The notes under the pieces are model-generated. The model was not told the origin of the DNA, made no database searches, and was given only the letters and a program-made list of their open reading frames with translations. From positions 3,720,001-3,784,000 of the forward strand of contig NW_025963779.1 of the NCBI RefSeq assembly GCF_023055435.1: DNA of 64,000 bases, in the 5' to 3' direction. The DNA comes from Haliotis rufescens. Taxonomy: Eukaryota. Of this stretch, positions 8,261-64,000 are shown piece by piece. Each line of letters begins with the position of its first letter. Positions within the stretch are counted from its first letter, which is position 1. The position numbers and the translations under genes are program-made.

Positions 8261-8425
8261 TGAGTGAGTGAGTATGGTTTTACACCGCTTTTAGCAATGT
8301 TCCAGCAATATCACGGCGGGGGACACCAAAAATGGGCTTCACACATTGTACCCATGTCGGGAATCGAACCCGGGTCTTCGGCGTGACGAGCGAACGCTTT
8401 AACCACTAGGCTACCCGACCGCCCC
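8261..8425 (-). mobile_element. SINE family A, full length
   Basis: Near-identical to 5175-5344; flanks CATTTAATG / CATTTTATG are a possible TSD. Confidence 0.95.
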
Positions 8426-8943: not shown

Positions 8944-9191
8944 CCCGTCTTCAGCAACCCATGCTTGCTGTAAGAGGCGACTATGCTTATCGTGAGAGGC
9001 GATTAAAGTGATCGGGTGGTCAGACTCACTGACTTGGTTGATGCATGTCATCGTATCCCAATTGCGTGGATCGATGCTCATGATGTCAATCACTGGATTG
9101 TCTTGTCCAGACTCGATTATTTACAGGCCGCCGTGATATAGCTGGAATATTGCTGAGTGTCGCGTTAAACAACAAACAAACAAACAAACAA
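8944..9191 (+). mobile_element. SINE family C, variant with duplicated hairpin module and 5' internal deletion
   Basis: ATGCTTGCTGTAAGAGGCGACT followed by ATGCTTATCGTGAGAGGCGATT; (CAAA)n tail. Confidence 0.92.
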
Positions 9192-15381: not shown

Positions 15382-15845
15382 TCTGCTTATGGTAGACGTC
15401 GCAGTCAGACATGTTCACATATATCTGCTGTAGTAGACGTCGCAGTCAGACATGTTCACACATGTCTGCTGTAGTAGACGTCGCAGTCAGATATGTTCAC
15501 ATATGTCTGCTGTAGTAGACGTCGCAGTCAGACATGTTCACACATATCTGCTCTAGTAGACGTCGCAGTCAGACATGTTCACATATGTCTGCTGTAGTAG
15601 ACGTCGCAGTCAGATATGTTCACATATATCTGCTCTAGTAGACGTCGCAGTCAGATATGTTCACATATATCTGCTCTAGTAGACGTCGCAGTCAGACATG
15701 TTCACATATGTCTGCTGTAGTAGACGTCGCAGTCAGATATGTTCACATATATCTGCTCTAGTAGACGTCGCAGTCAGATATGTTCACATATCTGCTGTAG
15801 TAGACGTCGCAGTCAGACATGTTCACATATGTCTGCTGTAGTAGT
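15382..15845. repeat. 41-bp minisatellite, ~11 units
   Basis: GTAGACGTCGCAGTCAGA at 15392, 15433, 15474...; each unit contains the inverted repeat CAGACAT..ATGTCTG. Confidence 0.97.
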
Positions 15846-16800: not shown

Positions 16801-16870
16801 GTACATTGTGATGACGAGGAAACGCTTGAATCTGGGTTTGAAGAAGCGACCGGCGTCCTGGCTTACAAAG

Positions 16871-17160
16871 AGTGAGTGAGTGAGTGAGTTGGGTTTAACG
16901 CCGCTTTTAACAGTATAGTATTCCAGTTATATCACGGCGTGTCAGCTTATTGTGGGAGGAAAGCCCGAAGTGATGCAGGTCTCTGACGTTTACCACTTCG
17001 GTGAAACCCACGAGCACGGGTATGGTGCTGACAAACATTGAAACATAATCGGGGCGAACCGGGATTCGAACCCACAATCATAGGTTTCTGGCGTACCCAA
17101 GGGACGCAACTCTGCACAGCGAATCGCGGCGCCTTAGACGACTGGGCCACCCGTGCCCCC
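16871..17160 (-). mobile_element. SINE family B, full length
   Basis: Reverse complement of 3583-3866; TSD GGCTTACAA at 16860-16868 and 17161-17169. Confidence 0.95.
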
Positions 17161-17238: not shown

Positions 17239-17513
17239 GTTTGTTTGTTTGTTTGTTTGTTTGTCTGTTGTTTAACGCCGCACAATATTCCGGCTCTATG
17301 ACGTCGGTCGGTAAATAATGGAGTTTGGATCAGACAATCCAGTGATTGACAGCATGAGCATCGAACCACGCAATTGGGATATGATGACATTCATCAACCA
17401 CGTCAGCGAGCCTGACCACCCGATGTCGTTAACTGCCACTTACGACAAGCATGGTCGCCTCTTACAACAAGCATGGGTTGTTGAAGGCCTGTTCTAACCG
17501 GGGTGTTCACGGG
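17239..17513 (-). mobile_element. SINE family C, full length, duplicated-hairpin variant
   Basis: (GTTT)n tail through to ..TTCACGGG; TSD CAGTTGCCTAGT / CAGTCGCCTAGT (11/12). Confidence 0.93.
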
Positions 17514-18568: not shown

Positions 18569-19620
18569 AGACAGACCCATATTAGATAAACACTTACCCT
18601 CCTTCCGAACACCAACCTCGCACCAGACCCACATTAACCCTCAGAACACCAGCCTCACAGCAGACTCACATTAACCCTTCCGAACACCAACCTCACACCA
18701 GACCCACATTAACCCTCAGAACACCAGCCTCACACCAGACTCACAGTAACCCTCAGAACACCAGCCTCACACCAGACCCACATTAACCCTCAGAACACCA
18801 GCCTCACACCAGACCCACATTAACCCTCAGAACACCAGCCTCACACCAGACTCACAGTAACCCTCAGAACACCAGCCTCACACCAGACCCACATTAACCC
18901 TCAGAACACCAGCCTCACACCAGACCCACATTAACCCTCAGAACACCAGCCTCACAGCAGACTCACATTAACCCTTCAGAACACCAACCTCACACCAGAC
19001 CCACATTAACCCTCAGAACACCAGCCTCACATCAGACTCACATTAACCCTCAGAACACCAGCCTCACACCAGACTCACATTAACCCTCAGAACACCAGCC
19101 TCACACCAGACCCACATTAACCCTCAGAACACCAGCCTCACACCAGACTCACAGTAACCCTCAGAACACCAGACTCACATTAACCCTCAGAACACCAGCC
19201 TCACACCAGACCCACATTAACCCTCAGAACACCAGCCTCACACCAGCCTCACAGTAACCCTCAGAACACCCGCCTCACACCAGACCCACATTAACCCTTC
19301 AGAGCACTAAACCCCCACCAGACTCACATTAACCCTTCAGAACACCAGACGCACATTAACCCTTCAGAACACCAGACTCACATTAACCCTTCAGAACACC
19401 AGACTCACACCAGACTCACACCAGACTCACATTAACCCTTCAGAACACTAGACTCACATTAACCCTTCAGAACACCAGACTCACATTAACCCTTCAGAAC
19501 ACCAGACTCACACCAGACTCACATTAACCCTTCAGAACACCAGCCTCACAGCAGACCAACATTAACCCGATCAGAACACTAACCTCACACCAAACCAGCA
19601 TAAAACTCTACCGAACACCA
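18569..19620. repeat. 37-bp C/A-rich minisatellite grading into ~27-bp units
   Basis: CATTAACCCTCAGAACACCAGCCTCACACCAGACCCA; CATTAACCC at 18781 and 18818; shortened units after ~19300. Confidence 0.97.
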
Positions 19621-20499
19621 GACCTAAATAGACGACATCTCCTTTTACACCGAATCCAAACCCACAAACCCCCTTATTTAATCTACTCTTCCCTCATCAT
19701 GACGTCTGCCTCACACATATTTGAACGTCTAAACGTTTACTCCAGATTGACTCCCGCGCCCTCCCAGCCATCGTGGACCATCGTAACAACCCCCATGATC
19801 AGCCATTCACAATGTTATCGCACGATTAATCTATCGCCCTCTGGTGTTAATAATTAGCAGGACCGATGACTACATTATTGGGTGATTGCTAGTTTCCCTT
19901 TTCACTAACGCCCATGAAGTTATTTATTGGCTAATTACCCTCGCGGAACCCGGTACCGACCTTCATGCTGGGGAGAGGTCCAAAGAAAGACTTGGAGTTA
20001 AAGATTATGATGCATAGGGTTATATACCGTTATTTAGATCTGACAAGCTCATCGTTCTCTGTGTCCACCCTCTCCGTTCACATCAGAACACTGGAGATAT
20101 GTGTGCCATTAGTGGGGTTTTGAGACAGGATTTTGTCAAAATTGTGCACTTTAGGTTAAAAACACCAAAATGAATCACCCGTTATATATCAGTGCCAATG
20201 AATGTGTTTTTAACATTGGTCAGTGATGTGTTTAAGATATATTTATTATTAATGGAGTTACGATACTATCTTATGTTGATGACGAAGATGGATCGTCCGC
20301 TTGCTGACATTGTATAAGGTGCACATGACTGATGGCGGTATTTGACACGACCGAGCGTTGGCGCCACATGACAAAGTTTTAATGTGTGTCTTACATATGG
20401 AACATGGCACGTGACTGGTGACAAGACAAAGTAGACCACGTGCGTCTGCTCACCTTGAATAGAAAGTGTATGGAAGGCTTGACAGGATACATGATCATA

Positions 20500-22165
20500 T
20501 GTGACCCACCGGAAGAAAAGGGACCTTATGGGTGCTGGGATAAAATTGTGCTATGACGTCATAATGACGTTTGACGTCAACTTACTTCAGTGAAGTTCGA
20601 TATGTGTGATGTCATATATCTCTGTAATACATATGAATTGAAGGTTCTGAATATTCCAGTGTTCCGAAGATGCTTCACCCATAACCTTATTTCATGGTTG
20701 GTCAGGCTTACTAATCACAACTATCGAAAGGTTATCTAAATAATATCGGACTTATTATATAAGACATAATCGCTGTCATTGAATAAAATCAATGCAAAGC
20801 GATACAGTCAATAGGAAGCCAGTGACTAGAGCATTTCAAGGAGTATCCCGTAACATGATGTTCTCCACTGTCACACGAAGGGAGTCCGAATAATGTGTTA
20901 CCACTCCTCTTTCTGTTCCTTTCGGTACCTCATCTCAAAATTACAGCCTGAACTATGGTGTTTCACTCCGAGTTGAGCGCGCGTTGCAGAACTCCAAGAT
21001 CCTGTATGTGGCGCATGGTGCACGTGGCTTCTGTAAATACAGTTCAGGAAAGCAATGCCAATCCATTCTGTGTATGCCGTGTTCTTCAATAAAGCATTGC
21101 CAACATGTACACTATTTGGAGGAGCATTTTCAAAGATCGGGGTACCTCTCCAAAAACGCATATTCCTCATGAATGTACCAAAGGTAGGGCCTCTAACTCT
21201 TCTCTGTAGCGTTATGCGGTGGATTTCTGCCCTCGCAGAAGGTGTAATACCACCAGGACCACCATGATTTTGTTTGTTTGTTGTTTAACGCTGCACTCAG
21301 CAATATACCTGCTATATGACGGCGGTCTGTAAATAATGGAGTCTGGACCAGGCAATCAAGTGATTGATATCATGAACATGAATCCACGCAATTTGGATAC
21401 GATGACATGCATCAACCAAGTCAGCGAGCCTGACCACCCGTTAATCGCTTCTTACGACAAGCATGGGTTGCTGAAGACCTATTCTAGCCCGGATCTTCAG
21501 GGGGCTGGATCCACCATCAAATCAATTCTGCGCCTCAAAAGCATCACCCACAAAACGTTATTGCGCTGTCTGTAAACACGCCTACGGTCATCATGCAAGG
21601 AAAATTGATTCATGTCGACTGAGACCAGAACTGTCGACCATTGACGTTGATTCCAACGCTGATGACATCAGCACAACAAACGAGCTTGTTAATGGCGTGG
21701 TGTTAGTCCTGGGCGACTTGCTAGAAGTCAAGCGGGGAGTCCAGCAGAGCCTAACCAGTTATTATGGTGGTCATGCTTATGCGAACATGTCTGGCATAGA
21801 TGTGCCCATCCTTTCTATGACATGTCGTCAGGAAGCTGTTCCGCAACACAATGTTAACCTGGTTCTATGATGCCTCTTGGTTGTGGCAAAGGAAGATCAG
21901 GTCTTCGTGCCTACGGAACAGCTCCAGTACTTCTCTGCAATAGTACCAGTGGTTATATGAGTATATGGAAACGTATTTGATACCGTTGCCACAGTCTACC
22001 AATAAAACTACGAGTGATGATGAACGTGCAGACTTTGACTATGACCTGTTTGGAGCATCACAGCATCTTCATCTTCATTAGTCAAACATCTACGCATTAT
22101 CTCAAGTGCCTGGTCATACTTAGTTCATATACTCGTGGTTCATTTTAGTTCATAAGTTCCTATTT
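20500..22165 (+). mobile_element. Possible decayed DNA transposon with Cys/His-rich coding remnants
   Basis: Terminus-like TGTGACCCACCGGAAGAAAAGGGACCTTATG at 20500 with a partial inverted match CATAAGTTCCTATTT at 22151; broken frames such as CMPCSSIKHCQHV inside. Confidence 0.3.
21268..21503 (-). mobile_element. SINE family C, near full length
   Basis: Reverse complement head CCCTGAAGATCCGGGCTAGAATAGGTCTTCAGCAACCCATGCTTGTCGTAAG; CCACCAT occurs close to both ends. Confidence 0.93.
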
Positions 22166-23830: not shown

Positions 23831-24066
23831 ACTCTCCACTCCACCACCTCGCTCCACTCCATCACCTCGCTCCACTCCACTGCATCTCCCCTCTCTACTC
23901 CATCACCTCGCTCCACTCCACTCCATCACCTCGCTCCCCTCCATCACCTCGCTCCACTCCACTGCATCTCCCCTCTCCACTCCATCACCTCACTCCGCTC
24001 CATCACCTCGCTCCACTCCATCTCCCCACTCCACTCCATCACCTCGCTCCACTCCACTTGTCTCCA
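23831..24066. repeat. Degenerate pyrimidine-rich repeat (CTCCACTCCATCACCTCG)n, ~18 bp
   Basis: Directly visible; explains ORF 23804-24121. Confidence 0.9.
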
Positions 24067-28030: not shown

Positions 28031-28300
28031 GGGGGCACGGGTGACCCAGTCGTCTAAGGCGCCGCGATTCGCGTCCCTTGGGCACGCCAGAAACCTATGA
28101 TTTTGGGTTCGAATCCCGGTTCGCCCCGATTATGTTTCTAGGTTTGTCAGCACCATACCCGTGCTCGTGGGTTTCACCGAAGTGGTAAACGTCTGAGACC
28201 TGCATCACTTCGGGCTTGCCTCCCACATTTATCTGACACGCAGCGATATAACTGGAATACTGTTAAAAGCGGCGTTAAATCCAACTCACTCACTCACTCA
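28031..28300 (+). mobile_element. SINE family B with 13-bp internal deletion
   Basis: Perfect 13-bp TSD CTTTTAATTGGAA at 28018-28030 and 28301-28313. Confidence 0.96.
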
Positions 28301-33411: not shown

Positions 33412-33870
33412 TGGGAGGGAAGTCCCAAGTGATGCTGGGAGGGAAGTCCCAAGTGATGCTGGGAGGGAGGTCCCAAGTGATGCTGGGAGGGAAGTCCCAA
33501 GTGATGCTGGGAGGGAGGTCCCAAGTGATGCTGGGAGGGAAGTCCCAAGTGATGCTGGGAGGGAAGTCCCAAGTGATGCTGGGAGGGAGGTCCCAAGTGA
33601 TGCTGGGAGGGAAGTCCCAAGTGATGCTGGGAGGGAGGTCCCAAGTGATGCTGGGAGGGAAGTCCCAAGTGATGCTGGGAGGGAGGTCCCAAGTGATGCT
33701 GGGAGGGAGGTCCCAAGTGATGCTGGGAGGGACGTCCTTAGTGATGCTGGTAGGGACGTCCCAAGTGATGCTGGGAGGGAAGTCCCAAGTGACGCTGGGA
33801 GGGAAGTCCCAAGTGATGCTGGGAGGGAAGTCCTAAGTGATGCTGGGAGGGAAGTCCCAAGTGATGCTGG
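33412..33870. repeat. 24-bp minisatellite (GGGAGGGAAGTCCCAAGTGATGCT)n, ~19 units
   Basis: Direct; gives the GREVPSDA-repeat ORF artefact. Confidence 0.98.
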
Positions 33871-36569
33871 GTCGGACTTGGTCTGATTCTCCAAAGAACA
33901 ATTCCGGTAGAACAGGACATGCTTCACCTTGTCGCGAACACCCGTGTAATCGGTGATTTTAACTGATCCAACATAGCGTTTTATCACTATATTGCTTTGT
34001 TACCTCAATGGAATCGGTTTGAGCAGATTCTCGAGACTGACTATTTTCTGTCGTTGACGTTTTGAATTTGAGCTGTGGAAGCCACCTGTTGGTCTGACAT
34101 CGCTATCCTCCACTCTCTGCTACATCTAAACACGGCCCCCTCCTAATGATGGTATTGGAACATTTGGGTCAGGGTTAGTCTATAGATTTAACACCACACT
34201 GATTCGCGTGTTTTGCAAACTAAGAGGTCGGTATAAATATAACGGTCAGGTTGTTCTTTATCAATAAACTTTCCCACGCACATTTGACAGCATCAATGAT
34301 ATTTTTGTGTTTATTTTGAACTATTCCGGTTAATTATAACCGTGTCACCTTGGGGGTTTCTCTTTACTCCATTGGTTCCGATGTAAGAAAATGTTCAAGG
34401 TATTTATTCATTTAATACTTTGTTATTCACAAGTAACAACTATTTTGACAAATATAGCAGTGCACGTCTGAAACATGTTTATGATACGGCAGATACGTTA
34501 CTACTCCGAGAAACACAACATAACCAGCCATTTGTTACCGCTGATTACCGTGGCCAGAGCCTTATCGTGTTCTGATTTATTTTAGAATTAAACTAAAATG
34601 ACTAAGCCAAACACTGCCCTATGTTAGAGTTTATCAGCTATATACATACGGCGTTGTTACCCTGGTCGAGAGAAGGGGATACGCCCACACCGAGTCTAAA
34701 CAAGACGACATGTGTTCAAAGAAATTCGAAGCAAATATTTGAAGGACGCCTGAAATAGTGATTGTTTGCAAAGTGGCATGATCAAAATGTAAAATATATC
34801 GCGATCTTGAAACATGTATACCAGTACGACCGGACAGTTGGCGAGAATGGGATCAGTAAACTACCGGTCAAAAGAAAGTATACACCCATGCTTGATGGTG
34901 GCTAAAATGAAACCAACAATGAATGGTTATCAGATCGTGATGTATTTGATACGGGTGTCATAGTTGTGTGTTGGACCTTATGTTTGCAGTGTTTCAAAGT
35001 CTGTTTTCAGCCAAGTAACCTTTTGATAACGTTCGTAAATATTTTGGTCAAATCCAATTTTTCAAGCGTATACTTTCTTTTGCCCGGTAGTTTAGATAGG
35101 AGGCTGCGGCTGTTAGCCAGGATACAGATACGACGTGGTGTGAATAGGAGAGCATTGTATACTATATGGGGCATAAAAAAGATGCTGATCGGGCACGACA
35201 CAGGCGTCACACTGTAACCGATGCACAGTTCAGTGTTACAGAAGGACGGGCTAGATGGTGGTAATGTTAGGGGCAAAGGGGTTAATGGTTCACGTGGTCC
35301 ATTCCTGTGGTTTGCGCCACTGTTTTGCCTGTGGCGCCGAAAGGACAGGTGTCTGTTTCGGCGGAATAGCCGGGATGGTTGTTCTCTGGCATTGCCGCAA
35401 TATATTAGGTTAAGGGAAACTAGTATTCTGTTTTTAGGTTTTAACGACATGATCTGAATAACGTGCAAAAGGTTTGTGATTTCGCTGACCCCACTGACTC
35501 TACAGCATGTTGGTCACTTCTACTGCCATACAAAGGAACTTACAACGTTCAATTAATTTTTCAACAGGATCTCCTCTGTTGTTATCAAACAAAATTGACA
35601 AATTGACAAATCAAGTACCAGAAACTAGTCACCAATGACTAAAAAAACATAATTATGTATTATTTTAACGGAAATACAAGGCTCTAGACTGTGTCAGTTT
35701 CGTTAAATTAAGGAGATTGATGAAAATAGGTCAAAGACGCTGAGCATGACGGGGTTGACAGCGAGAAGACAGCAGCGTGTACAGACAGTTAATTACCTGA
35801 ATCTTGTCCTTGTAATAATAATACACTTAGCTGATAATGGGGAAACCGCACAAGGGAGATGATCCGTACTTCATACAGTGTGTATCTCGATAATGTGAAA
35901 AGAAATACAGTGATCCTTCGGGGTCCAAATAATTGATGAGCGTTATAAATGATCCGCGGTTAAAAGAAGGTCGAGTCGTAGGTGGTAGATGACCAACAAA
36001 ACAGTATACTTGCTCTGCCTACCTAACACGATCTACCTTGCACGTTTCAGAGTTTCAAAAAATATTAGAATGGATGCTATTTATGATTCATAGTGTAAAA
36101 AAAGTTATCGAGTATTAATATGCGCTCCCAAAAAAACCGCGTATCCCTTCAGCGAATTCAGGTGAATAAACAGGTATAACAAACTTGGTCAATAAAGGTA
36201 TGACATTTGATATAAAACATTACTAGACATGATGATTTACCATTTAAAATGTATTTCCTGCTCTCTAAGGCACTGTTTTATATGCAGAGATTAAGATTAC
36301 CGTGTGTATTTTCTCGTAAACTAAGCCGGAAATAGCAATCAGCTATGCACACGTTTCCTCCCAATCTACCAGTGATTCAGTTGAAAGGTACCCAGCTGTG
36401 ATATAACTTCAAAGAATTTTGATGCAATGGTCGGAAGAAATTGTACCTGAAATGATTATTTTATCAGGAATAATTTATTCCAAAATCGTGTCATTTTAGT
36501 TGCAGCTTCCACCATATATATTTAAAATTATGTATGTACATGGAATAACAATATTTGATCTCGCCTCCG

Positions 36570-37539
36570 AATAACGACCAGTTGTAGCCGTGAATAGTTT
36601 CTCCAAAACAACAAGTTGTAGCGGTGAATAGTTTCCCCATAACGACAAGTTGTAGCGGTGAATAGTTTCCCCATAACGACAAGTTGTAGCGGTGAATAGT
36701 TTCCCCATAACGACAAGTTGTAGCGGTGAATTGTTTCCCCATGACGACCAACTGTAGCGGTGCACATTTTCCCATAACGACCAATTGTAGCGGTGCACAT
36801 TTTCCCATAACGACCAGTTGTAGCGGTGCACAGTTTCCCCATAACGACCAGTTGTAGCGGTGCAAGTTTCCGATAACGACCAGTTGTAGCGGTGCACAGT
36901 TTCCCCATAACGACCAGTTGTAGCGGTGCAAGTTTCCGATAACGACCAGTTGTAGCGGTGAATAATTTCCCCATAACGACCAGTTGTAGCGGTGTATAGT
37001 TTCTCCATAACGACCAGTTGTAGCGGTGCACAGTTTCCCCATAACGACCAGTTGTAGCGGTGAATAATTTCCCCATAACGACCAGTTGTAGAGGTGCACA
37101 TTTTCCCATAACGACCAGTTGTAGCGGTGCACATTTTCCCATAACGACCAGTTGTAGCGGTGCACAGTTTCCCCATAACGACCATCTGTGGCGGTGCACA
37201 GTTTCCCCATAACGACCAGTTGTAGCGGTGCACATTTTCCCATAACGACCAGTTGTAGCGGTGCACATTTTCCCGTAACGACCAGTTGTAGCGGTGCACA
37301 TTTTCCCGTAACGACCAGTTGTAGCGGTGCACATTTTCCCGTAACGACCAGTTGTAGCGGTGCACATTTTCCCGTAACGACCAGTTGTAGCGGTGCACAT
37401 TTTCCCGTAACGACCAGTTGTAGCGGTGCACAGTTTCCCCATAACGACCAGTTGTAGCGGTGAATAGTTTCCCCATAACGACCAGTTGTAGCGGTGCACA
37501 TTTTCCCATAACGACCATCTGTGGCGGTGGATAGTTTCT
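36570..37539. repeat. 33/34-bp minisatellite (CCCATAACGACCAGTTGTAGCGGTGCACATTTT)n, ~29 units
   Basis: Direct; all three minus-strand frames are open only because the unit lacks stops. Confidence 0.98.
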
Positions 37540-38424: not shown

Positions 38425-41400
38425 TCTCCCAGTGAGAGGTGGCGGGTTAGCCAAGTGGTTAAAGTGGTCCCCCTCACCCAGATATCTCCCAGTGAGAGGT
38501 GGCGGGTTAGCCCAGTGGGGAAAGTGGTCCCACTCACCAAGATATCTCCCAGTGAGAGGTGGCGGGTTAGCCCAGTGGGGAAAGTGGTCCCACTCACCAA
38601 GATATCTCCCAGTGAGAGGTGGCGGGTTAGCCCAGTGGGGAAAGTGGTCCCACTCACCAAGATATCTCCCAGTGAGAGGTGGCGGGTTAGCCCAGTGGGG
38701 AAAGTGGTGCCACTCACCAAGATATCTCCCAGTGAGAGGTGGCGGGTTAACCCAGTGGGGAAAGTGGTCCCACTCACAAAGATATCTCCCAGTGAGAGGT
38801 GGCGGGTTAACCCAGTGGGGAAAGTGGTCCCACTCACCAAGATATCTCCCAGTGAGAGGTGGCGGGTTAACCCAGTGGTTATAGTGGTCCCACTCACCCA
38901 GATATTTCCCAGTGAGAGGTGGCGGGTTAGCCCAGTGGGGAAAGTGGTCCCACTCACCAAGATATCTCCCAGTGAGAGGTGGCGGGTTAGCCCAGTTGGT
39001 AAAGTGGTCCCCCTCACCAAGATATCTCCCAGTGAGAGGTGGCGGGTTAACCCAGTGGGGAAAGTGGTCCCACTCACCAAGATATCTCCTAGTGAGAGGT
39101 GGCGGGTTAGCCCAGTGGGGAAAGTGGTCCCACTCACCAAGATATCTCCCAGTGAGAGGTGGCGGGTTAACCCAGTGGGGAAAGTGGTCCCCCCCCCCCC
39201 CCCCTCACCCAGATATTTCCCAGTGAGAGGTGGCGGGTTAGCCCAGTGGGGAAAGTGGTCCCCCGCACCCAGATATCTCCCAGGGAGAGGTGGCGGGTTA
39301 GCCCAGTGGGAAAAGTGGTCCCCCTCACCCAGATATCTCCCAGTGAGAGGTGGCGGGTTAACCCAGTGGTTATAGAGGTCCCCCCTCACCCAGATATTTC
39401 CCAGTGAGAGGTGGCGGGTTAACCCAGTGGGGAAAGTGGTCCCCCGCACCCAGATATCTCCCAGTGAGAGGTGGCAGGGTAACCCAGTGGGGAAAGTGGT
39501 CCCCCCCAACCCAGATGTCTCCCAGTGAGAGGTGGCGGGTTAACCCAGTGGTTATAGTGGTCCCCCCTCACCCAGATATTTCCCAGTGAGAGGTGGCGGG
39601 TTAACCCAGTGGGGAAAGTGGTCCCCCGCACCCAGATATCTCCCAGGGAGAGGTGGCGGGTTAGCCCAGTGGGGAAAGTGGTCCCCCTCACCCAGATATC
39701 TCCCAGTGAGAGGTGGCGGGTTAACCCAGTGGTTATAGTGGTCCCCCCTCACCCAGATATTTCCCAGTGAGAGGTGGCGGGTTAACCCAGTGGGGAAAGT
39801 GGTCCCCCGCACCCAGATATCTCCCAGTGAGAGGTGGCGGGTTAACCCAGTGGGGAAAGTGGTCCCCCCCACCCAGATGTCTCCCAGTGAGAGGTGGCGG
39901 GTTAACCCAGTGGTTATAGTGGTCCCCCCTCACCCAGATATTTCCCAGTGAGAGGTGGCGGGTTAACCCAGTGGGGAAAGTGGTCCCCCGCACCCAGATA
40001 TCTCCCAGGGAGAGGTGGCGGGTTAACCCAGTGGTTATAGTGGTCCCACTCACCCAGATATTTCCCAGTGAGAGGTGGCGGGTTAGCCCAGTGGGGAAAG
40101 TGGTCCCACTCACCAAGATATCTCCCAGTGAGAGGTGGCGGTTTAGCCCAGTGGGTAAAGTGGTCCCCCTCACCAAGATATCTCCCAGTGAGAGGTGGCG
40201 GGTTAACCCAGTGGGGAAAGTGGTCCCACTCACCAAGATATCTCCTAGTGAGAGGTGGCGGGTTAACCCAGTGGTTATAGTGGTCCCACTCACCCAGATA
40301 TTTCCCAGTGAGAGGTGGCGGGTTAGCCCAGTGGGGAAAGTGGTCCCACTCACCAAGATATCTCCCAGTGAGAGGTGGCGGGTTAGCCCAGTGGGTAAAG
40401 TGGTCCCCCTCACCAAGATATCTCCCAGTGAGAGGTGGCGGGTTAACCCAGTGGGGAAAGTGGTCCCACTCACCAAGATATCTCCTAGTGAGAGGTGGCG
40501 GGTTAGCCCAGTGGGGAAAGTGGTCCCACTCACCAAGATATCTCCCAGTGAGAGGTGGCGGGTTAACCCAGTGGGGAAAGTGGTCCCCCCCCCCCCTCAC
40601 CCAGATATTTCCCAGTGAGAGGTGGCGGGTCAGCCCAGTGGGGAAAGTGGTCCCCCGCACCCAGATATCTCCCAGGGAGAGGTGGCGGGTTAGCCCAGTG
40701 GGAAAAGTGGTCCCCCTCACCCAGATATCTCCCAGTGAGAGGTGGCGGGTTAACCCAGTGGTTATAGAGGTCCCCCCTCACCCAGATATTTCCCAGTGAG
40801 AGGTGGCGGGTTAACCCAGTGGGGAAAGTGGTCCCCCGCACCCAGATATCTCCCAGTGAGAGGTGGCAGGGTAACCCAGCGGGGAAAGTGGTCCCCCCCA
40901 ACCCAGATGTCTCCCAGTGAGAGGTGGCGGGTTAACCCAGTGGTTATAGTGGTCCCCCCTCACCCAGATATTTCCCAGTGAGAGGTGGCGGGTTAACCCA
41001 GTGGGGAAAGTGGTCCCCCGCACCCAGATATCTCCCAGGGAGAGGTGGCGGGTTAGCCCAGTGGGGAAAGTGGTCCCCCTCACCCAGATATCTCCCAGTG
41101 AGAGGTGGCGGGTTAACCCAGTGGTTATAGTGGTCCCCCCTCACCCAGATATTTCCCAGTGAGAGGTGGCGGGTTAACCCAGTGGAGAAAGTGGTCCCCC
41201 GCACCCAGATATCTCCCAGTGAGAGGTGGCGGGTTAACCCAGTGGGGAAAGTGGTCCCCCCCACCCAGATGTCTCCCAGTGAGAGGTGGCGGGTTAACCC
41301 AGTGGTTATAGTGGTCCCCCCTCACCCAGATATTTCCCAGTGAGAGGTGGCGGGTTAACCCAGTGGGGAAAGTGGTCCCCCGCACCCAGATATCTCCCAG

Positions 41401-42417
41401 TGAGAGGTGGCGGGTTAGCCCAGTGGGGAAAGTGGTCCCCCTCACCCAGATATCTCCCAGTGAGAGGTGGCGGGTTAGCCCAGTGGGGAAAGTGGTCCCC
41501 CTCACCGAGATATTTCCCAGTGAGAGGTGGCGGGTTAACCCAGTGGTTATAGTGGTCCCCCCTCACCCAGATATTTCCCAGTGAGAGGTGGCGGGTTAAC
41601 CCAGTGGTTATAGTGGTCCCCCCTCACCCAGATATTTCCCAGTGAGAGGTGGCGGGTTAACCCAGTGGGGTAAGTGGTCCCCCTCACCCAGATATCTCCC
41701 AGTGAGAGGTGGCGGGTTAACCCAGTGGTTATAGTGGTCCCCCCTCACCCAGATATTTCCCAGTGAGAGGTGGCGGGTTAACCCAGTGGGGAAAGTGGTC
41801 CCCCGCACCCAGATATCTCCCAGGGAGAGGTGGCGGGTTAACCCAGTGGGGAAAGTGGTCCCCCTCACCCAGATATCTCCCAGTGAGAGGTGGCGGGTTA
41901 ACCCAGTGGTTATAGTGGTCCCCCCTCACCCAGATATTTCCCAGTGAGAGGTGGCGGGTTAACCCAGTGGGGAAAGTGGTCCCCCGCACCCAGATATCTC
42001 CCAGTGAGAGGTGGCGGGTTAGCCCAGTGGGGAAAGTGGTCCCCCTCACCCAGATATCTCCCAGTGAGAGGTGGCGGGTTAGCCCAGTGGGGAAAGTGGT
42101 CCCCCTCACCGAGATATTTCCCAGTGAGAGGTGGCGGGTTAACCCAGTGGTTATAGTGGTCCCCCCTCACCCAGATATTTCCCAGTGAGAGGTGGCGGGT
42201 TAACCCAGTGGTTATAGTGGTCCCCCCTCACCCAGATATTTCCCAGTGAGAGGTGGCGTGTTAACCCAGTGGGGTAAGTGGTCCCCCTCACCCAGATATC
42301 TCCCAGTGAGAGGTGGCGGGTTAACCCAGTGGTTATAGTGGTCCCCCCTCACCCAGATATTTCCCAGTGAGAGGTGGCGGGTTAACCCAGTGGGGAAAGT
42401 GGTCCTCGTCACCAGAT
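38425..42417 (+). repeat. 60/61-bp tandem array, ~66 units, derived from a SINE-A tRNA head
   Basis: Unit CCCAGTGAGAGGTGGCGGGTTAGCCCAGTGGGGAAAGTGGTCCCACTCACCAAGATATCT; the last unit runs into SINE-A-like body sequence. Confidence 0.98.
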
Positions 42418-42496
42418 TCGTTCTATTCCTATCGTGGCACAGTATGCAAAAATCAAATATCCTCCGCCCTGTTATTTATGAAATATTGCTGAAAGC
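42405..42496 (+). mobile_element. Degenerate SINE family A body contiguous with the last satellite unit
   Basis: CTCGTCAC..GTTCTATTCC (B-box remnant)..TCCTCCGCC..GAAATATTGCTGAAAGC versus consensus CTCGTCAC..GTTCGATTCC..TCCCCCGCC..GAATATTGCTAAAAGC. Confidence 0.75.
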
Positions 42497-42676
42497 AAAT
42501 GGATAATGATGCTGATGTCATAGCTAGCAATACCAGCCCATCTGTATCATCTACATTTACCTGGGCTATTGCTTGAGTACATTTCATGCAAATATTCCAA
42601 TCTCAATGTACATGATGCACAATCGGTTACTGGTTCCCCTGTCTTGAATAATTATAAGATTTGCTATTTAAGTACG

Positions 42677-43785: not shown

Positions 43786-45093
43786 GTTTGATAGGGCGGG
43801 GTGACTTTGCGGGATAGACTGGGTATGGTGTTTGATAGGGCGGAGTGACTTGGCGGGATAGAGTGGGTATGGTGTTTGATAGGGCGGAGTGACTTGGCGG
43901 GATAGACTGGGTATGGTGTTTGATAGGGCGGAGTGACTTGGCGGGATAGACTGGGTATGGTGTTTGATAGGGCGGAGTGACTTTGCGGGATAGAGTGGGT
44001 ATGGTGTTTGATAGGGCGGAGTGACTTGGCGGGATAGAGTGGGTATGGTGTTTGATAGGGCGGGGTGACTTGGCGGGATAGAGTGGGTATGGTGTTTGAT
44101 AGGGCGGAGTGACTTGGCGGGATAGAGTGGGTATGGTGTTTGATAGGGCGGGGTGACTTGGCGGGATAGACTGGGTATGGTGTTTGATAGGGCGGAGTGA
44201 CTTGGCGGGATAGAGTGGGTATGGTGTTTGATAGGGCGGGGTGACTTGGCGGGATAGACTGGGTATGGTGTTTGATAGGGCGGAGTGACTTGGCGGGATA
44301 GAGTGGGTATGGTGTTTGATAGGGCGGGGTGACTTGGCGGGATAGACTGGGTATGGTGTTTGATAGGGCGGGGTGACTTGGCGGGATAGAGTGGGTATGG
44401 TGTTTGATAGGCCGGGATGACTTGGCGGGATAGAGTGGGTATGGTGTTTGATAGGGCGGGGTGACTTGGCGGGATAGACTGGGTATGGTGTTTGATAGGG
44501 CGGAGTGACTTGGCGGGATAGAGTGGGTATGGTGTTTGATAGGGCGGGGTGACAGGGCGGGGTGACTTGGCGGGATAGAGTGTGTATGGTGTTTGATAGG
44601 GCGGGGTGACTTTGCGGGATAGAGTGGATATGGTGTTTGATAGGGCGGGGTGACTTGGCGGGATAGACTGGGTATGGTGTTTGATAGGGCGGAGTGACTT
44701 GGCGGGATAGAGTGGGTATGGTGTTTGATAGGGCGGAGTGACTTGGCGGGATAGACTGTGTATGGTGTTTGATAGGGCGGGGTGACTTTGCGGGATAGAG
44801 TGGGTATGGTGTTTGATAGGGCGGGGTGACTTTGCGGGATAGACTGGGTATGGTGTTTGATAGGGCGGGGTGACTTGGCGGGATAGAGTGGGTATGGTGT
44901 ATGATAGGGCGGGATGACTTGGCGGGATAGACTGGGTATGGTGTTTGATAGGGCGGGGTGACTTGGTGGGATAGAGTGGGTATGGTGTTTGATAGGGCGG
45001 GGTGACTTGGCGGGATAGACTGGGTATGGTGTTTGATAGGGCGGAGTGACTTGGCGGGATAGACTGGGTATGGTGTTTGATAGGGCGGGGGAC
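43786..45093. repeat. 44-bp G-rich minisatellite, ~30 units
   Basis: GTTTGATAGGGCGGGGTGACTTGGCGGGATAGACTGGGTATGGT; TTTGATAGGG at 43787 and 43831. Confidence 0.98.
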
Positions 45094-50187: not shown

Positions 50188-50361
50188 GATGCATTAATGA
50201 TAATCCTTTCAATGACATAAATCACTTATTACACCGTCGAGACCAAGATAAAAAGTAGTCCGCCATGACACTGCTAGCAGTGAAAGAGTTATGGAGAAGT
50301 GGTGCATGTGTGCCATGTCTAATTTTGGTTTTAATCCCACCCTGCTCTGAAAACCAATAGC

Positions 50362-51510
50362 ACCCCGCCCACATATACCTACCCCCTCTGTTCTGTCATC
50401 CTTTGCCCCATCCCGCCCACATTTACCCACCTCCTCTGTTCTGTCAGCCCTTGCCCCACCCCGCCCACAATTACCCACCTCCTCTGTTCTGTCATCCTTT
50501 GCCCCATCCCGCCCACATTTACCCACCTCCTCTGTTCTGTCAGCCCTTGCCCCACCCCGCCCACAATTACCCACCTCCTCTGTTCTGTCATCCTTTGCCC
50601 CATCCCGCCCACATTTACCCACCTCCTCTGTTCTGTCAGCCCTTGCCCCACCCCGCCCACAATTACCCACCTCCTCTGTTCTGTCATCCATTGCCCAACC
50701 CCGCCCACATTTACTCACCCCCTCTGTTCTGTCAGCCCTGCCCAAACCCCCGCCCACATTTACCCACCCCCTCTGTTCTGTCAGCCCTTGCCCCACCCCG
50801 CCCACAATTACCCACCTCCTTTGTTCTGTCATCCATTGCCCAACCCCGCCCACATTTACCCACCCCCTCTGTTCTGTCATCCATTGCCCCACCCCCGCCC
50901 ACATTTACCCACCCCCTCTGTCTTGTCAGCCCTGCCCCACCCCGCCCACAATTACCCACCTCCTCTGTTCTGTCATCCATTGCCCCGACCCGCCCACATT
51001 TACCCACCCCCTCTGTACTGTCAGCCCTGCCCCACCCCGCCCACAATTACCCACCTCCTCTGTACTGCCATCCCTTGCCCCACCCCGCCCACAATTACCC
51101 ACCCCCTCTGTACTGTCAGCCCTGCCCCACCCCGCCCAAAATTACCCACCCCCTCTGTAATGCCATCCCTTGCCCCACCCCGCCCACATTTACCCACCTC
51201 CTCTGTTCTGTCATCCATTGCCCAACCCCGCCCACATTTACCCACCTCCTCTGTTCTGTCATCCTTGCCCAACCCCGCCCACATCTACCCACCCCCTCTG
51301 TTCTGCCATCCCTTGCCCCACCCCGCCCACATCTACCCACCCCCTCTGTTCTGTCATCCCTTGCCCCACCCCGCCCACATCTACCCACCACCTCTGTTCT
51401 GTCATCCCTTGCCGAACCCCGCCCACATTTACCCACCCCCTCAGTTCTGTCATCCCTTGCCCCACCCCGCCCACATTTACCCACCCCCTCTGCCCTGTCA
51501 CCCCTGCCCT
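50362..51510. repeat. 48-bp C-rich minisatellite, ~24 units, initially an alternating dimer
   Basis: CCCGCCCACA at 50412, 50460, 50508, with ATTT/AATT variants alternating. Confidence 0.97.
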
Positions 51511-52357
51511 ACCCGCTGAGCAGCATCACATCAACGCGCCAAACAACATCATCCAGGCAGAATGGAATCGTTCAGGGGCAAGTGGCTGAATATCACGTTG
51601 ATTTGTGAAAAGCTTCTAAATTAGCCGTATCACCCGATGGAGCTGCTGAATTAGCTGTATAGCCCAATAATGATATGTGCTACTGTGCAGAATAATCACA
51701 ACCCGTCTGTAAAGCTCTTATAATCCCCGATTAAACACTGTCAAGTGTTATTCTCTGTCATCCCGACGCCACACACGACCCATATATTACAGGCTTGTCA
51801 TTTGGCTCATAATGGAGCTTTAATGTCTCTATCAAGCACTTATTGTATACAAGACCAAATTGTCATCTAACTGCAGGAATATGTTGTTGCCGGAATTTCA
51901 GTAATTTATGGCATGTTCGTCAGGGGTGCATAAATTTTAATGCTCTTTGACGAGATCGTAAATAAACAGTTACCTACATTGTCTATTCGAAGGTATTGAG
52001 CTTGTGCCTTTATTGAATGTGCCCGCGTATTTAAAAGTAAGGCCACATCAAAGAGTCTTTTTGTTTTGGGGAGTTCCCTCAGAAACTGTAAGTCTCGTTA
52101 TCTTTATCTCATAATACATTAAAAATCGTCCTCAGTTGTTGCCTGTGAGTTTTGAAAATGTTCGCACTTACAAAGTCATTTGTAATCACCTCTTTCATAG
52201 TCCTTTTATTGGTGGTAGCGAGCTGTGATCGTTAGTCTTTGCTGACGTTATTCATGTCTACATTCCATGCCAAACGAACCCTTAAAACAGACGTGTGGGG
52301 TGAAAACTGGGATTTGTGGTCGGAGTACTTGGGTATAGCGTACGATGTTCGCGCATG

Positions 52358-52633
52358 TTGTATATCCCCTGTGTATAGTGTATATCCCATGTGAATAGTG
52401 TATATCCCCTGTACATATTGTATATCCCCTTTGTATATCCCCTGTGCATATTATATATCTCCCGTGTATAGTGTATATCCCCGTGCATATTGTATATCCT
52501 CTTTGTATATCCCCTGTGTATGTTGTATAACCCCTGTGTATAGTGTATATCCCATGTGAATAGTGTATATCCCCTGTACATATTGTATATCCCCTTTGTA
52601 TATCCCCTGTGCATCTTGTATATCTCCTGTGTA
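52358..52633. repeat. Degenerate TGTATATCCCC-based repeat with 165-bp higher-order duplication
   Basis: CCCATGTGAATAG at 52386 and 52551. Confidence 0.9.
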
Positions 52634-54609: not shown

Positions 54610-54825
54610 CTGCAAAAAGTAAGTAGAAATAGAACTGAACCTGTATGGTCTACGTGGCTAACACGTGAAGGTAGACAATCCTTGTCGAGGTGGTATAATC
54701 GGACAATTGACAGTCCAGGCCAGATTAATTCAGGTAAATCAAAAACAGTTTGGTTGTTTGATAACTCAATGTGTATGATCAATATTACCATTATTGGTCT
54801 TTTAATGGGAGACAATAGTCTTATA

Positions 54826-57243
54826 AGTATAGGTCCATCATAGATTATCTCGCTATCAGTATAGGTCCATCATAGATTATCTCGCTATCAGTGTAGGTCC
54901 ATCATAGATTATCTCGCTATCAGTATAGGTCCATCATAGATTATCTCGCTATCAGTATAGGTCCATCATAGATAATCACAATATCAGTATAGGTCCATCA
55001 TAGATTATCTCGCTATCAGTGTAGGTCCATCATAGATTATCACAATATCAGTATAGGTCCATCATAGATTATCTCGCTATCAGTGTAGGTCCATCATAGA
55101 TTATCTTGATATCAGTATAGCTCCATCAAAGATTATCTCGCTATCAGTGTAGGTCCTTCGTAGATTATCACAATATCAGTATAGGTCCATCATAGATTAT
55201 CTTGATATCAGTATAGGTCCATCAAAGATTATCTCGCTATCAGTGTGGGTCCATCATAGATTATCTCGCTATCAGTGTAGGTCCATCATAGATTATCTTG
55301 ATATCAGTATAGGTCCATCATAGATTATCTCGCTATCAGTGTAGGTCCATCATAGATTATCTCGCTATCAGTGTAGGTCCATCATAGATTATCACAATAT
55401 CAGTATAGGTCCATCATAGATTATCTTGATATCAGTATAGGTCCATCATAGATTATCACAATATCAGTGTAGGTCCATCATAGATTATCTTGATATCAGT
55501 ATAGGTCCATCATAGATTATCTTGATATCAGTATAGGTCCATCATAGATTATCTTGATATCAGTATAGGTCCATCATAGATTATCACAATATCAGTGTAG
55601 GTCCATCATAGATTATCTTGATATCAGTATAGGTCCATCATAGATTATCTTGATATCAGTATAGGTCCATCATAGATTATCTTGATATCAGTGTAGGTCC
55701 ATCATAGATTATCACAATATCAGTATAGGTCCATCATAGATTATCTCGCTATCAGTGTAGGTCCATCATAGATTATCTCGCTATCAGTGTAGGTCCATCA
55801 TAGATTATCTCGCTATCAATGTAGGTCCATCATAGATTATCTCGCTATCAGTATAGGTCCATCATAGATTATCTTGATATCAGTATAGGTCCATCATAGA
55901 TTATCACAATATCAGTATAGGTCCATCATAGATTATCTTGATATCAGTGTAGGTCCATCATAGATTATCTTGATATCAGTATAGGTCCATCATAGATTAT
56001 CTTGATATCAGTATAGGTCCATCAAAGATTATCTCGCTATCAGTATAGGTCCATCATAGATTATCTCGCTATCAGTATAGGTCCATCATAGAATATCTTG
56101 ATATCAGTATAGGTCCATCATAGATTATCACAATATCAGTATAGGTCCATCATAGATTATCTTGATATCAGTGTAGGTCCATCATAGATTATCTTGATAT
56201 CAGTATAGGTCCATCATAGATTATCTTGATATCAGTATAGGTCCATCAAAGATTATCTCGCTATCAGTGTAGTTTCATCATAGATTATCTTGATATCAGT
56301 GTAGGCCCATCATAGATTATCTCGCTATCAGTGTAGGTCCATCATAGATTATCTCGCTATCAGTGTAGGTCCATCATAGATTATCTTGATATCAGTATAG
56401 GTCCATCATAGATTATCTCGCTATCAGTGTAGGTCCATCATAGATTATCTTGATATCAGTATAGGTCCATCATAGATTATCACAATATCAGTGTAGGTCC
56501 ATCATAGATTATCTTGATATCAGTATAGGTCCATCATAAATTATCTCGCTATCAGTGTAGGTCCATCATAGATTATCTTGATATCCGTATAGGTCCATCA
56601 TAGATTATCTTGATATCAGTATAGGTCCATCATAGATTATCTCGCTATCAGTGTAGGTCCATCATAGATTATCTTGATATCAGTATAGGTCCATCATAGA
56701 TTATCACAATATCAGTGTAGGTCCATCATAGATTATCTTGATATCAGTATAGGTCCATCATAGATTATCTTGATATCAGTATAGGTCCATCATAGATTAT
56801 CTTGATATCAGTATAGGTCCATCATAGATTATCACAATATCAGTGTAGGTCCATCATAGATTATCTTGATATCAGTATAGGTCCATCATAGATTATCTTG
56901 ATATCAGTATAGGTCCATCATAGATTATCTTGATATCAGTATAGGTCCATCATAGATTATCACAATATCAGTGTAGGTCCATCATAGATTATCTTGATAT
57001 CAGTATAGGTCCATCATAGATTATCACAATATCAGTATAGGTTCATCATAGATTATCATGATATGAGTATAGGTCCTACATAGATTATCACGATATCAGT
57101 ATAAGTCCATCATAGAATATCACGATATCAGTATAGGTCCATCGTAGATTATCATGATAACAGTATAAGACCATCATAGAGTATCACGATATCCTTATAG
57201 GTCAATCATTATAGATTATAACTATATTAGTATAGATCCCATC
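54826..57243. repeat. 32-bp minisatellite, ~75 units, three interspersed variants
   Basis: CAGT(A/G)TAGGTCCATCATAGATTAT[CTCGCT|CTTGAT|CACAAT]AT; AGGTCC at 54831, 54863, 54895. Confidence 0.99.
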
Positions 57244-58076: not shown

Positions 58077-58605
58077 CTCGTGGAGATCCGTGTTAGAATT
58101 TATCTTCAGCAACCCATGTTAGCATAACGTCATGTTAGCAGAACGTCATGTTAGCATAACGTCATGTTAGCAGAACGTCATATTAGCATAACGTCATGTT
58201 AGCAGAACGTCATGTTAGCAGAACGTCATATTAGTATAACGTCATGTTAGCATATCGTCTTGTTAGCATAACGTCATTTTAGCATAACTTCATGTTAGCA
58301 GAACGTCATATTAGCATCAGGTTATGTTAGCAGAACGTCATATTAGCATAACGTCATGTTAGCAGAACGTCATATTAGCATAACGTCATGTTAGCAGAAC
58401 GTCATATTAGCAGAACGTCATACTAGCATAACGTCATGTTAGCAGAACGTCATATTAGCATAACGTCATGTTATCCCGAAAGCAGGGATCGTTGATCATG
58501 CTTTCAGTTACTGGTTCCCTGGGTCCAGATCGTGCTGTTTACAAGCCGTCGAGATATCACTCCCGTATTGTTGTACGTGGTGTTAGACACCATTCCTTCA
58601 GTCAC
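58077..58605 (+). mobile_element. Old SINE family C copy split by a minisatellite
   Basis: Head CTCGTGGAGATCCGTGTTAGAATTTATCTTCAGCAACCCATG (58077-58118); body resumes ATCCC..GGATCG..ACTGG..GGTCCAGA..TTTACA at 58473. Confidence 0.75.
58115..58472. repeat. 16-bp minisatellite (CATGTTAGCAGAACGT)n, ~22 units
   Basis: Direct. Confidence 0.97.
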
Positions 58606-61392: not shown

Positions 61393-61538
61393 AACACACA
61401 CATATCTGAGCATGTATTGTAGTCTAACACACATATCTGAGCATGTATTGTCGTCTAACACACATATCTGAGCATGTATTGTAGTCTAACACACATATCT
61501 GAGCATGTATTGTAGTCTAACACACATATCTGAGCATG
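61393..61538. repeat. 31-bp tandem repeat, ~4.7 units
   Basis: CATATCTGAGCATGT at 61401, 61432... Confidence 0.95.
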
Positions 61539-62539
61539 TGGAACAGGCGTTCACCCCTGCTATAATACAGGTCGGACATTGCTAATTTGGCGGATGTTAT
61601 CACACTGAGAAACGAGGACACAACATATGTCATTGTTGCTTGTGTTAGTCATAAGACATGTTGTACAGAAATGGGAAGATTGCGAGCCCTTTTCAAACAT
61701 GACAAAAAGTGTCTGTGTTTTAGTCCCGTTGCTTTTATACTTTATATGCTGCCTTATCTTCCGGACGACCTTTCTACTTAAGCATGTAAATGGTTATCAC
61801 GTTCACAGAGGAACACAGTGTTGGCGTCTATATTCAAATTGGATATTGTGGTGATGCGTTGCTCTTTAATACATGGCAAAAATAATTCATGACTGTTTGT
61901 TCGAGAGAGAGACCCCACTTTTAACGTTTCATGTTCAACGGTGTTTCTGTTCTATATGCAAGAGTTAATAGATAACACAAGCAAGTCCATGCATGTAGGC
62001 TCTGTATTCACAACCCGCCAACACAAGAGATGCATGGGCAGTCCCAGTTACTACCATTGACAAGAAAGAAATACGGTCACATATTTTAGAAAGTCAGTGT
62101 GACATATTTCTTTGCCACAAAAATAAACAATATTGAAATGTTCGGCTGTTTTCACAGTTCCAGTTGACTTGATGCATGTTTGACATGCTGCATGACATAG
62201 CTGGGATATACACATAGTTCAGTGGCATTAGGGTAGCTTGCGACTTAGATGGCTGTCCTTCTAGAATGCAGTCAGACAACAGCAACAACAGCAACAACGG
62301 CAGGGTACGTGCAGCAGCAACAACAGCAATGACCGATGAGATGGCGCTTGTCCAACCTCGAGCCCTTTGTGACGTTGTTTTTGCTTCAGTTAAACTGGGC
62401 GGTGGTACGTTCTTGACGACATATAGACATCGTGAATGAACCCCAATCGGACGTGATGTCGGTTGAATTTATTATACTATGGTCTTGACTGGAGCATAAG
62501 CAAGTGCCTTAAATTGTGCGGGTTAAGAGATGATATCAT

Positions 62540-63220: not shown

Positions 63221-63691
63221 AAATAAATAAAGCGACAAAACCCTTCTCATATCCTATATATATGGTTCCGACTATATCATGAGTATGTGCTCAAGAATCA
63301 CTATCAAATAGTGATGATACCAGGTGTTCGCGAAAAGATGAGCGTATTCTTCCCAACCGGTGGCACCCGTCACAAACACATGCAAAGGCAACTCAAATGT
63401 TCACCTGAAAAAACACGGGAACATATGGTACAGGTCAAACCAGGGAATTGCATCAGACATGATTTTTGTCACTGATGCGTCAAATTTGGAAATGCCCTCC
63501 AAATGTCTACTATTAAACTTTAGGAAAGCTTTACTGAGGCCTTGGGTGTTGTAACCTTGATCAAACAAATTCTGTGCAAGAGTCGTATGACGCTCTTTGA
63601 AATCATGGAAGAAAGAGCATGCTCGATTGTATCTCAAAAGTTGTGAAATGTAGACACCAAAGCCTGGAGCTGCTGGAATATTGCTCGACAT
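63221..63691 (-). mobile_element. PLE family D 3' fragment with uninterrupted RT-thumb frame and 3' UTR
   Basis: MSSNIPAAPGFGVYISQLLRYNRACSFFHDFKERHTTLAQNLFDQGY...FNSRH is a PLE RT thumb; the frame stops shortly after with no C-terminal GIY-YIG. Confidence 0.9.
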
Positions 63692-64000
63692 CGAACCCTT
63701 GTCCTGGCAGAACCATTCGCCGGAAGGTCTCACCTAGAAAATAAAATAGCGTTAAAAGTAAGCGTCAGCGATCAGTGATCCGTCACTGTGGAACTGGGGT
63801 AGACAGGTCGTTTTCCGTTCAGATTCTCCACAAGTCGCCAAGCTTGTTTCACCCCCTATAAAACTCACGGTATTAAATCTCCGTCACTTCCAGACATAGG
63901 GAGAGACACGACCACACATCCTGTGGGTACATGTAGCTATACATTGCAATGGTATGTTCATTTTGACACATACTAATGTGTTTAGAATTATATTAACATG

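What the first reader, a model, noticed from the sequence alone, without database searches (positions are those of the whole stretch)
38425..42496. A 4-kb satellite built from the tRNA head of a SINE: ~66 tandem A-box-like motifs upstream of one B-box remnant
Seen: the first unit reads GGTGGCGGGTTAGCCAAGTGGTTAAAGTGGTCCCCCTCAC versus the SINE-A head GGCGGTCGGGTAGCCTAGTGGTTAAAGCGTTCGCTCGTCAC. The last unit continues directly into CTCGTCAC, a B-box remnant (GTTCTATTCC) and the SINE tail (GAAATATTGCTGAAAGC). Known: TRGCNNAGTGG is the Pol III A box. Inference: 5' flank plus SINE head was amplified in situ, so this is a satellite caught with its parent element still attached. It may bind TFIIIC or be transcribed, although many units have TAACCCAGTGG rather than TAGCCCAGTGG and the B box is mutated.
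Basis: partly seen in the sequence, partly recalled or inferred. Interest (0 to 1): 0.7.

Follow-up and report, generated by a model that had tools for sequence, protein, structure and literature searches.

The report
Minisatellite grown from a SINE head
This 4-kb block is 66 tandem copies of the front end of an old, decayed jumping element, with the rest of that element still attached; it is likely a neutral local repeat expansion, one of many like it in this genome and of a kind already described in reptiles and humans.

Summary
38425-42417 is 66 units of about 60 bp. Each unit is about 10 nt of flank plus the head of an abundant tRNA-derived SINE. The last unit runs on into the decayed SINE body (E 4e-10; 0 of 2000 shuffles). 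The unit occurs at this locus only, so it is a minisatellite, not a satellite family.

It is ordinary here. 22 other loci carry paired SINE heads; 12 are arrays of 6 to about 113 units with different units, 10 of them still joined to their SINE body. No single-unit allele appeared in 4 DNA runs of two species labels.

A Pol III role is unsupported: 22 of 66 units keep the A box, the last does not, and no intact B box exists. The anatomy matches SINE-derived satellites of squamates (PMC10702118). The scan noted other element-derived arrays in this genome before. New member of a known kind; low interest.

The parts
38425..42417 (+). Single-locus minisatellite, 66 units of about 60 bp, 29 unit types, with trimer, 10-unit (604 bp) and about 23-unit (1392 bp) higher-order repeats
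   Evidence: single locus
38425..38484 (+). Unit 1: about 10 nt of 5' flank followed by the SINE head (profile positions about 2-50); the unit most like the SINE in this assembly
   Evidence: 12.5 bits against at most 9.1 for inner units with the window-only profile; 0 of 2000 shuffles
38448..38458 (+). A-box match of unit 1; 22 of 66 units keep the match
   Evidence: G38450A in run X7 breaks it
42360..42417 (+). Last unit; keeps the SINE's CTCGTCAC but has a broken A box (42383-42393)
42372..42496 (+). Decayed parent SINE copy (head, B-box region, 3' body); simple-repeat tail lost; 93 of the first 140 SINE positions match, against 91-136 for 34 dispersed copies
42420..42428 (+). B-box remnant, one mismatch to GWTCRAnnC, 37 nt from the A-box position (44 nt in an intact copy)
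   Evidence: not significant alone; no change listed at the mismatch in runs X7, X12
42460..42496 (+). Match to the SINE 3' body
   Evidence: 0 of 2000 shuffles, z about 10

Best explanation
The array is a single-locus minisatellite whose unit is about 10 nt of flank plus the head of a decayed tRNA-derived SINE copy; it likely began as one local tandem duplication, likely grew by slippage and unequal exchange, and is likely without function. Shown: homology of unit and 3' remainder to the SINE, continuity of the last unit into the body, single locus, nested higher-order repeats, and recurrence of the same anatomy with other units at other loci. Inferred: (1) a SINE inserted and decayed (internal deletions, tail lost); (2) a 60-bp stretch spanning its 5' junction and ending just before the B box was duplicated at the DNA level; (3) misaligned recombination or replication slippage multiplied units singly and in blocks of 3, 10 and about 23; (4) unit sequence drifted, eroding the A box. 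The first duplication likely predates the split of the two species labels sampled.
For: Homology. Single locus. Block duplications. Flank inside the unit argues for DNA-level duplication; Pol III RNA would start at the head (established; PMC4333407 passages for Alu). Region is array-prone: 13 arrays (period 15 or more, 4 or more copies) cover 13,006 of 64,000 bases and 12 of the 13 have no match to this SINE. SINE-like hits cover 2,527 bases outside the array, about 5% of non-array DNA, so one of 13 arrays seeding on one is about an even chance (my arithmetic). The head 17-mer has 47,883 exact copies. 22 other head-head loci form a series: 5 flank-plus-head duplications of 2-3 units, 12 arrays of 6 to about 113 units, 5 SINE-in-SINE insertions (classes read by eye). 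A contig of organism B (X12) bridges flank, unit 1 and 38 nt of unit 2. Runs X7 and X12 carry two letters in the 3' remainder that are nearer the SINE (T42432C, G42442A). No promoter maintenance.
Against: The unamplified ancestor was not seen: no single-unit allele in 4 of 4 runs laid at the left end, and no more distant species was listed, so the order of steps is inferred. The parent is among the most diverged copies (93 of 140) and the B-box region alone is at chance level. The array is shared by two species labels, which neutrality allows but does not predict. Lack of function is argued from motifs only; chromatin and long-RNA data were not available. Gene context is unresolved: 0 of 250 stop-to-stop frames of 55 aa or more passed a Pfam cut-off, but short exons would be missed.
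Confidence: 0.87

Rival explanations
1. The array works as a multi-A-box Pol III or TFIIIC element (transcription unit or chromatin boundary) using the single downstream B-box remnant.
For: 22 of 66 units match TRGYnnAnnnG and one near-B box follows the array; no T4 terminator lies within the array; the array is present under two species labels.
Against: 0 strict B boxes on either strand; the last unit's A box is broken and the nearest intact one is 5 units upstream; A-B spacing is shortened to 37 nt. Unit 1's A box is broken in X7. A and B boxes together form the TFIIIC site and a B-box mutation sharply cut Alu transcription in vitro (PMC4333407 passages; a different mutation from this one). 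B-box words also fall into close pairs (128), so A-box arrays are not singled out.
Confidence: 0.05
2. The first head-head repeat arose by retrotransposition (a SINE inserting into an older SINE head, or a template jump) and only then amplified.
For: 5 of 22 other loci are SINE-in-SINE insertions that leave two heads 48-71 bp apart, and L088 is such an insertion amplified to 24 heads.
Against: Here the unit holds about 10 nt of non-SINE sequence that also stands at the left edge of the array, no second SINE remainder follows the body, and no target-site duplication is seen.
Confidence: 0.05
3. The SINE likeness is chance: a G-rich minisatellite lying next to an unrelated SINE 3' fragment.
For: Inner units score weakly (E 0.03 or worse with the window-only profile) and the middle part alone is at chance level.
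Against: Head and 3' part each beat 2000 of 2000 shuffles, in the right order, strand and near-right spacing; 12 of 12 other arrays do not match.
Confidence: 0.02
4. The 4-kb length or its inner 1.4-kb duplication is an assembly artefact.
For: Short-read contigs cannot span the array; junction-contig depth against flank depth differs widely among runs (about 10x in X5, about 1x in X7; the tool says depth is no copy number).
Against: The two 1392-bp blocks differ by scattered changes (longest exact run 305 nt), and repeat-junction contigs occur in 4 of 4 runs.
Confidence: 0.03

Closest known systems
SINE-derived satellites (sSat) of squamates, Vassetzky et al. 2023, PMC10702118 (parts 1-4 of 5 of the text read; figures and supplements not seen)
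   Same: Tandem unit shorter than the tRNA-SINE and taken from part of it; a terminal unit that runs on into the SINE; alternating di- and trimeric subvariants in long loci; some units with extra non-SINE sequence (sSat3Gja2: 5' part plus about 30 nt of unknown origin); most primary duplications stay single genomic instances.
   Different: Unit 60 bp against about 70-290 nt; the major sSats share one unit over tens to thousands of loci and lean subtelomeric, whereas this unit is at one locus, 3.76 Mb into a 94-Mb contig; invertebrate host (the paper leaves open whether sSats occur outside squamates).
Alu- and B1-derived minisatellites (review PMC9659126, passages seen: 7276 human TE-derived minisatellites, 2663 associated with Alu; Jurka and Gentles 2006 and Bois et al. 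1998 seen only as its references)
   Same: Single-locus minisatellite expanded from a piece of a SINE.
   Different: 7SL-derived SINEs there, tRNA-derived here; here the unit spans the SINE's 5' junction.
Bivalve tandem SINE arrays, PMC11481361 (abstract and section 15 read; Fig. 5 not seen)
   Same: Mollusc tRNA-SINEs in direct tandem arrays, with truncated inner units and fuller end units.
   Different: Those are 2-15 near-whole SINEs; here only the head is repeated, 66 times.
tRNA-related Pol III tandem repeats of amphibians (PolIII/TAN, OAX, Rana/polIII, Hy/polIII; as described in PMC10702118)
   Same: Tandem repeats holding tRNA-like promoter sequence.
   Different: Those units are about 200 nt or longer and abundant, and PolIII/TAN is transcribed in vitro; this unit lacks a B box and is single-locus.

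Membership tests
SINE-derived tandem repeat (sSat sensu PMC10702118) | Unit homologous to part of a SINE family of the same genome and shorter than it | tested here: met
   SINE head is tRNA-like (Rfam RF00005 at 5268-5339 and 8349-8420 above the gathering score)
SINE-derived tandem repeat (sSat sensu PMC10702118) | At least four middle monomers | tested here: met
   64 middle units
SINE-derived tandem repeat (sSat sensu PMC10702118) | Terminal unit extended into the rest of the SINE | tested here: met
   profile positions 3-140 on 42372-42496
Satellite DNA family (multi-locus, heterochromatic) | Same unit at many loci | tested here: not met
   65 of 65 pattern hits (2 mismatches allowed) and 46 of 46 BLAST matches in this array; more diverged or unassembled copies are not excluded
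Satellite DNA family (multi-locus, heterochromatic) | Heterochromatic (centromeric or subtelomeric) location | not testable with these tools
   3.76 Mb from the start of a 94.2-Mb contig; no chromatin data
Minisatellite / VNTR | Single-locus array of 10-100 bp units | tested here: met
Minisatellite / VNTR | Copy number varies among individuals | tested here: inconclusive
   junction-contig depth differs among 4 runs, but contig depth is not copy number
Pol III type 2 promoter / TFIIIC site | Intact B box GWTCRAnnC | tested here: not met
   0 matches on either strand in 38425-42500; one 1-mismatch remnant; consensus from PMC4333407
Pol III type 2 promoter / TFIIIC site | Intact A box at tRNA-like distance upstream of the B box | tested here: not met
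   last unit fails TRGYnnAnnnG; nearest intact is unit 61 of 66
Pol III type 2 promoter / TFIIIC site | TFIIIC or Pol III occupancy, or a transcript | not testable with these tools
   no ChIP data; no RNA holder listed
Named mollusc SINE family (e.g. HalSINE1, MetaSINE; PMC4824008, passages seen) | Match of the parent SINE to the published consensus | not tested
   the consensus is in a figure that is not held; the family is left unnamed ('SINE-A')

The most novel reading that the evidence does not exclude
The tRNA-derived head of this SINE is a real hotspot for minisatellite birth in this genome, seeded both by local duplication across the 5' junction and by new copies inserting into old heads, with hairpin-forming variants favoured during growth; one genome then holds the whole series (2, 3, 6-49, 66, about 113 units) with the ancestral sequence known for each, a ready test bed for how minisatellites are born.
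Probability: 0.2. Interest if true: 0.45.

Novelty: new member of a known kind. Interest (0 to 1): 0.22.

Why it matters
By itself little: it is one repeat in an array-rich region. The useful point is that SINE-derived tandem repeats, described systematically in squamates, recur in an invertebrate genome (abalone according to earlier scan notes; not checked here). Because the SINE gives the ancestral state, such loci allow breakpoints, growth and mutation bias of minisatellites to be read directly. My six literature searches (open-access library only) listed no paper on SINE-head arrays in abalone; that is weak evidence of absence.

Tried and rejected
Coding repeat: frames through the array are open only in stretches and are broken by 61-nt units and C-runs; not pursued. 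Gene context: 250 of 250 non-repeat frames of 55 aa or more were scanned against Pfam; 2 weak hits, both under the curated cut-off; no gene placed, short exons not excluded. True tRNA genes: ARAGORN found 0; Rfam tRNA hits lie only on intact SINE heads, none on the array. Expression: no RNA holder listed; small-RNA run X21 and run X20 gave 0 records on 42296-42670, with no positive control, so no test. Single-unit allele: no loose end leading from unit 1 into the SINE body in 4 runs; X5's flank contig stops at 38356, so its link to the array is not shown; only 4 of 19 main holders were laid at the left end and 2 at the right. Older SINE subfamily as parent: 29 copies picked by likeness to unit 1 are mostly ordinary decayed copies of the same SINE; the 34-copy profile is circular for head identity, so ranks of units rest. 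Junction microhomology: X7's unit ends in the same six letters as the last unit, which fits a blunt junction; a 2-nt microhomology plus one added base fits too; undecided. Hairpin-driven drift: unit dimers fold at z -0.4 to -3.4 (7 windows, both strands) and 6 of 9 common changes stabilise hairpins against 38% of all single changes; inconclusive, and unit 1 is not surely ancestral. A-box specificity: B-box words also form close pairs (128), so no preference shown.

Full report
Observation. The stretch 38425-42417 is a tandem array of period 60 with 66.0 copies and 91% matches. Split at a fixed anchor it gives 66 units of 29 types, 60 or 61 nt long, two lengthened by C-runs. Types recur in blocks: a 181-nt trimer, a 10-unit block (383 exact nt at offset 604) and a block of about 23 units (305 exact nt at offset 1392).

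The SINE. The window holds several copies of a roughly 165-nt element whose head matches Rfam tRNA (3 whole and 1 partial match, 2 above the gathering score). A 17-mer of its head occurs 47,883 times in G000. I could not name the family: the published consensus of the candidate is in a figure that is not held.

Homology. A profile from 5 dispersed copies aligns positions 3-140 to 42372-42496 (E 4.1e-10). Against one intact copy, unit 1, a common unit, the last unit and the 3' remainder each beat 2000 of 2000 dinucleotide shuffles; the B-box piece alone does not (411 of 2000); 10 other arrays score at background. The unit is about 10 nt of flank plus the SINE head and stops just before the B box. 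The parent copy is old: 93 of 140 positions match, against 91-136 for 34 dispersed copies. Its simple-repeat tail is gone and no target-site duplication was found.

One locus. All 46 BLAST matches and all 65 pattern hits in the 1.33-Gb genome lie in this array. It is a minisatellite rather than a satellite family. The window is rich in arrays: 13 cover 13,006 bases, and 12 of the 13 have no match to this SINE.

The same anatomy recurs. An exact search for two head 17-mers 42-72 bp apart gave 100 matches in 22 loci, 0 for the reversed control. This is a lower bound; it does not find the present array. All 22 were examined (classes read by eye). Twelve are arrays of 4 or more heads, each with its own unit of 25-68 bp: 6, 7, 11, 12, 13, 17, 18, 22, 24, 36, 49 and about 113 units (the last; 5.5 kb, longer than this one). 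In 10 of the 12 the last unit continues into the SINE body (9 as far as the tail, 1 to position 96); in L081 and the 113-unit array it does not. Six of the 12 have flank plus head as unit, as here. Five loci are flank-plus-head duplications of 2-3 units and five are SINE-in-SINE insertions; L088 is such an insertion that then grew to 24 heads. Close pairs of the B-box word also occur (128). So a satellite 'caught with its parent' is the usual state of these arrays here.

Other individuals. Nineteen runs under two species labels hold at least half of the left flank's words. Four were laid on the left flank plus two units and two of these on the last two units plus right flank. A contig of X12 (organism B) bridges flank, unit 1 and 38 nt of unit 2; X7's flank contig reaches 30 nt into unit 2, one short of the tool's bridging rule; X5's flank contig stops before the array. 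Short repeat-junction contigs are present in 4 of 4 runs, and none shows a loose end from unit 1 into the SINE body. The unamplified state was therefore not seen, and the first duplication likely predates the two labels. X7 and X12 carry T42432C and G42442A, both nearer the SINE, and no change is listed at the B-box mismatch. X7's first unit has G38450A, which breaks its A box. Junction depth relative to flank differs among runs, a hint of length variation only.

Pol III. With the consensus given in PMC4333407 (passages), 22 of 66 units keep the A box, the last does not, the nearest intact one is unit 61, there is no strict B box on either strand, and the A-B distance is 37 nt against 44 in an intact copy. 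That paper states that A and B boxes together form the TFIIIC site and that a B-box mutation sharply reduced Alu transcription. Binding and transcription were not testable here.

Mechanism. Shown: homology, continuity into the body, single locus, block structure, recurrence. Inferred: insertion and decay of a SINE; one DNA-level duplication across its 5' junction; growth by slippage and unequal exchange in single units and blocks; drift of the unit. Confidence 0.87. Rivals: Pol III or TFIIIC element 0.05; seeding by nested retrotransposition 0.05; assembly artefact 0.03; chance likeness 0.02. A bias towards hairpin-stabilising variants was tested and is inconclusive.

Known kinds. Squamate SINE-derived satellites (PMC10702118, parts 1-4 of 5 read; supplements not seen and may hold closer single-locus cases) have partial-SINE units, an extended terminal unit, alternating subvariants and sometimes extra non-SINE sequence; all three structural criteria are met here. 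Human Alu-derived minisatellites number in the thousands (PMC9659126 passages). Bivalve tandem SINE arrays repeat near-whole elements (PMC11481361 section 15). Membership in a multi-locus satellite family and in Pol III type 2 promoters was tested and not met.

Verdict. Real feature, origin correctly read, function unsupported, kind known and common in this genome. Interest 0.22.

Noticed in passing
L088 (G000:C124, about 6,038,000-6,039,600, minus strand): A SINE inserted into an older SINE head and the 48-bp head-head repeat then grew to 24 heads; whole SINE and remainder of the old copy follow. A clean example of nested insertion seeding a minisatellite.
   Followed up: partly
L101:5964-10000 and L102:1-1496 (G000:C594:22,935,964-22,941,496): About 113 units of 49 bp built from the same SINE head, 5.5 kb, with an oppositely oriented SINE at one end and no SINE body after the last unit.
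   Followed up: partly
L083, L086, L092, L094 (and L088, L090): Several head-head loci break at nearly the same SINE position (46-49 bp period), which may mark a preferred insertion or breakpoint site in the head; not tested against chance.
   Followed up: no
G000:C2:18,398,987-18,399,171; C46:24,742,670-24,742,811; C3:683,281-683,486 and many more: One 43-bp unit carrying a perfect B-box word occurs in short tandem runs at dozens of loci; likely the inner repeat of a dispersed mobile element.
   Followed up: no
window 464-707, 15373-15844, 18607-19623, 23834-24056, 33412-33871, 36571-37538, 43786-45090, 50361-51514, 52353-52631, 54822-57209, 58115-58473, 61396-61539: Twelve further unrelated minisatellites; with this array they cover 20% of the window. 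None matches this SINE.
   Followed up: partly
window 3583-3865, 16870-17160, 28066-28300 and 1954-2089, 5539-5696, 8949-9190, 17255-17486, 21269-21472: Two more dispersed SINE-like families share the 3' end of the parent SINE but have different 5' parts.
   Followed up: no
window 63404-63733 (minus strand): A 110-aa open frame that from recall resembles the end of a Penelope-type reverse transcriptase; no Pfam hit.
   Followed up: no
L029:1508-1844: Two whole SINE copies in tandem, period 168.
   Followed up: no
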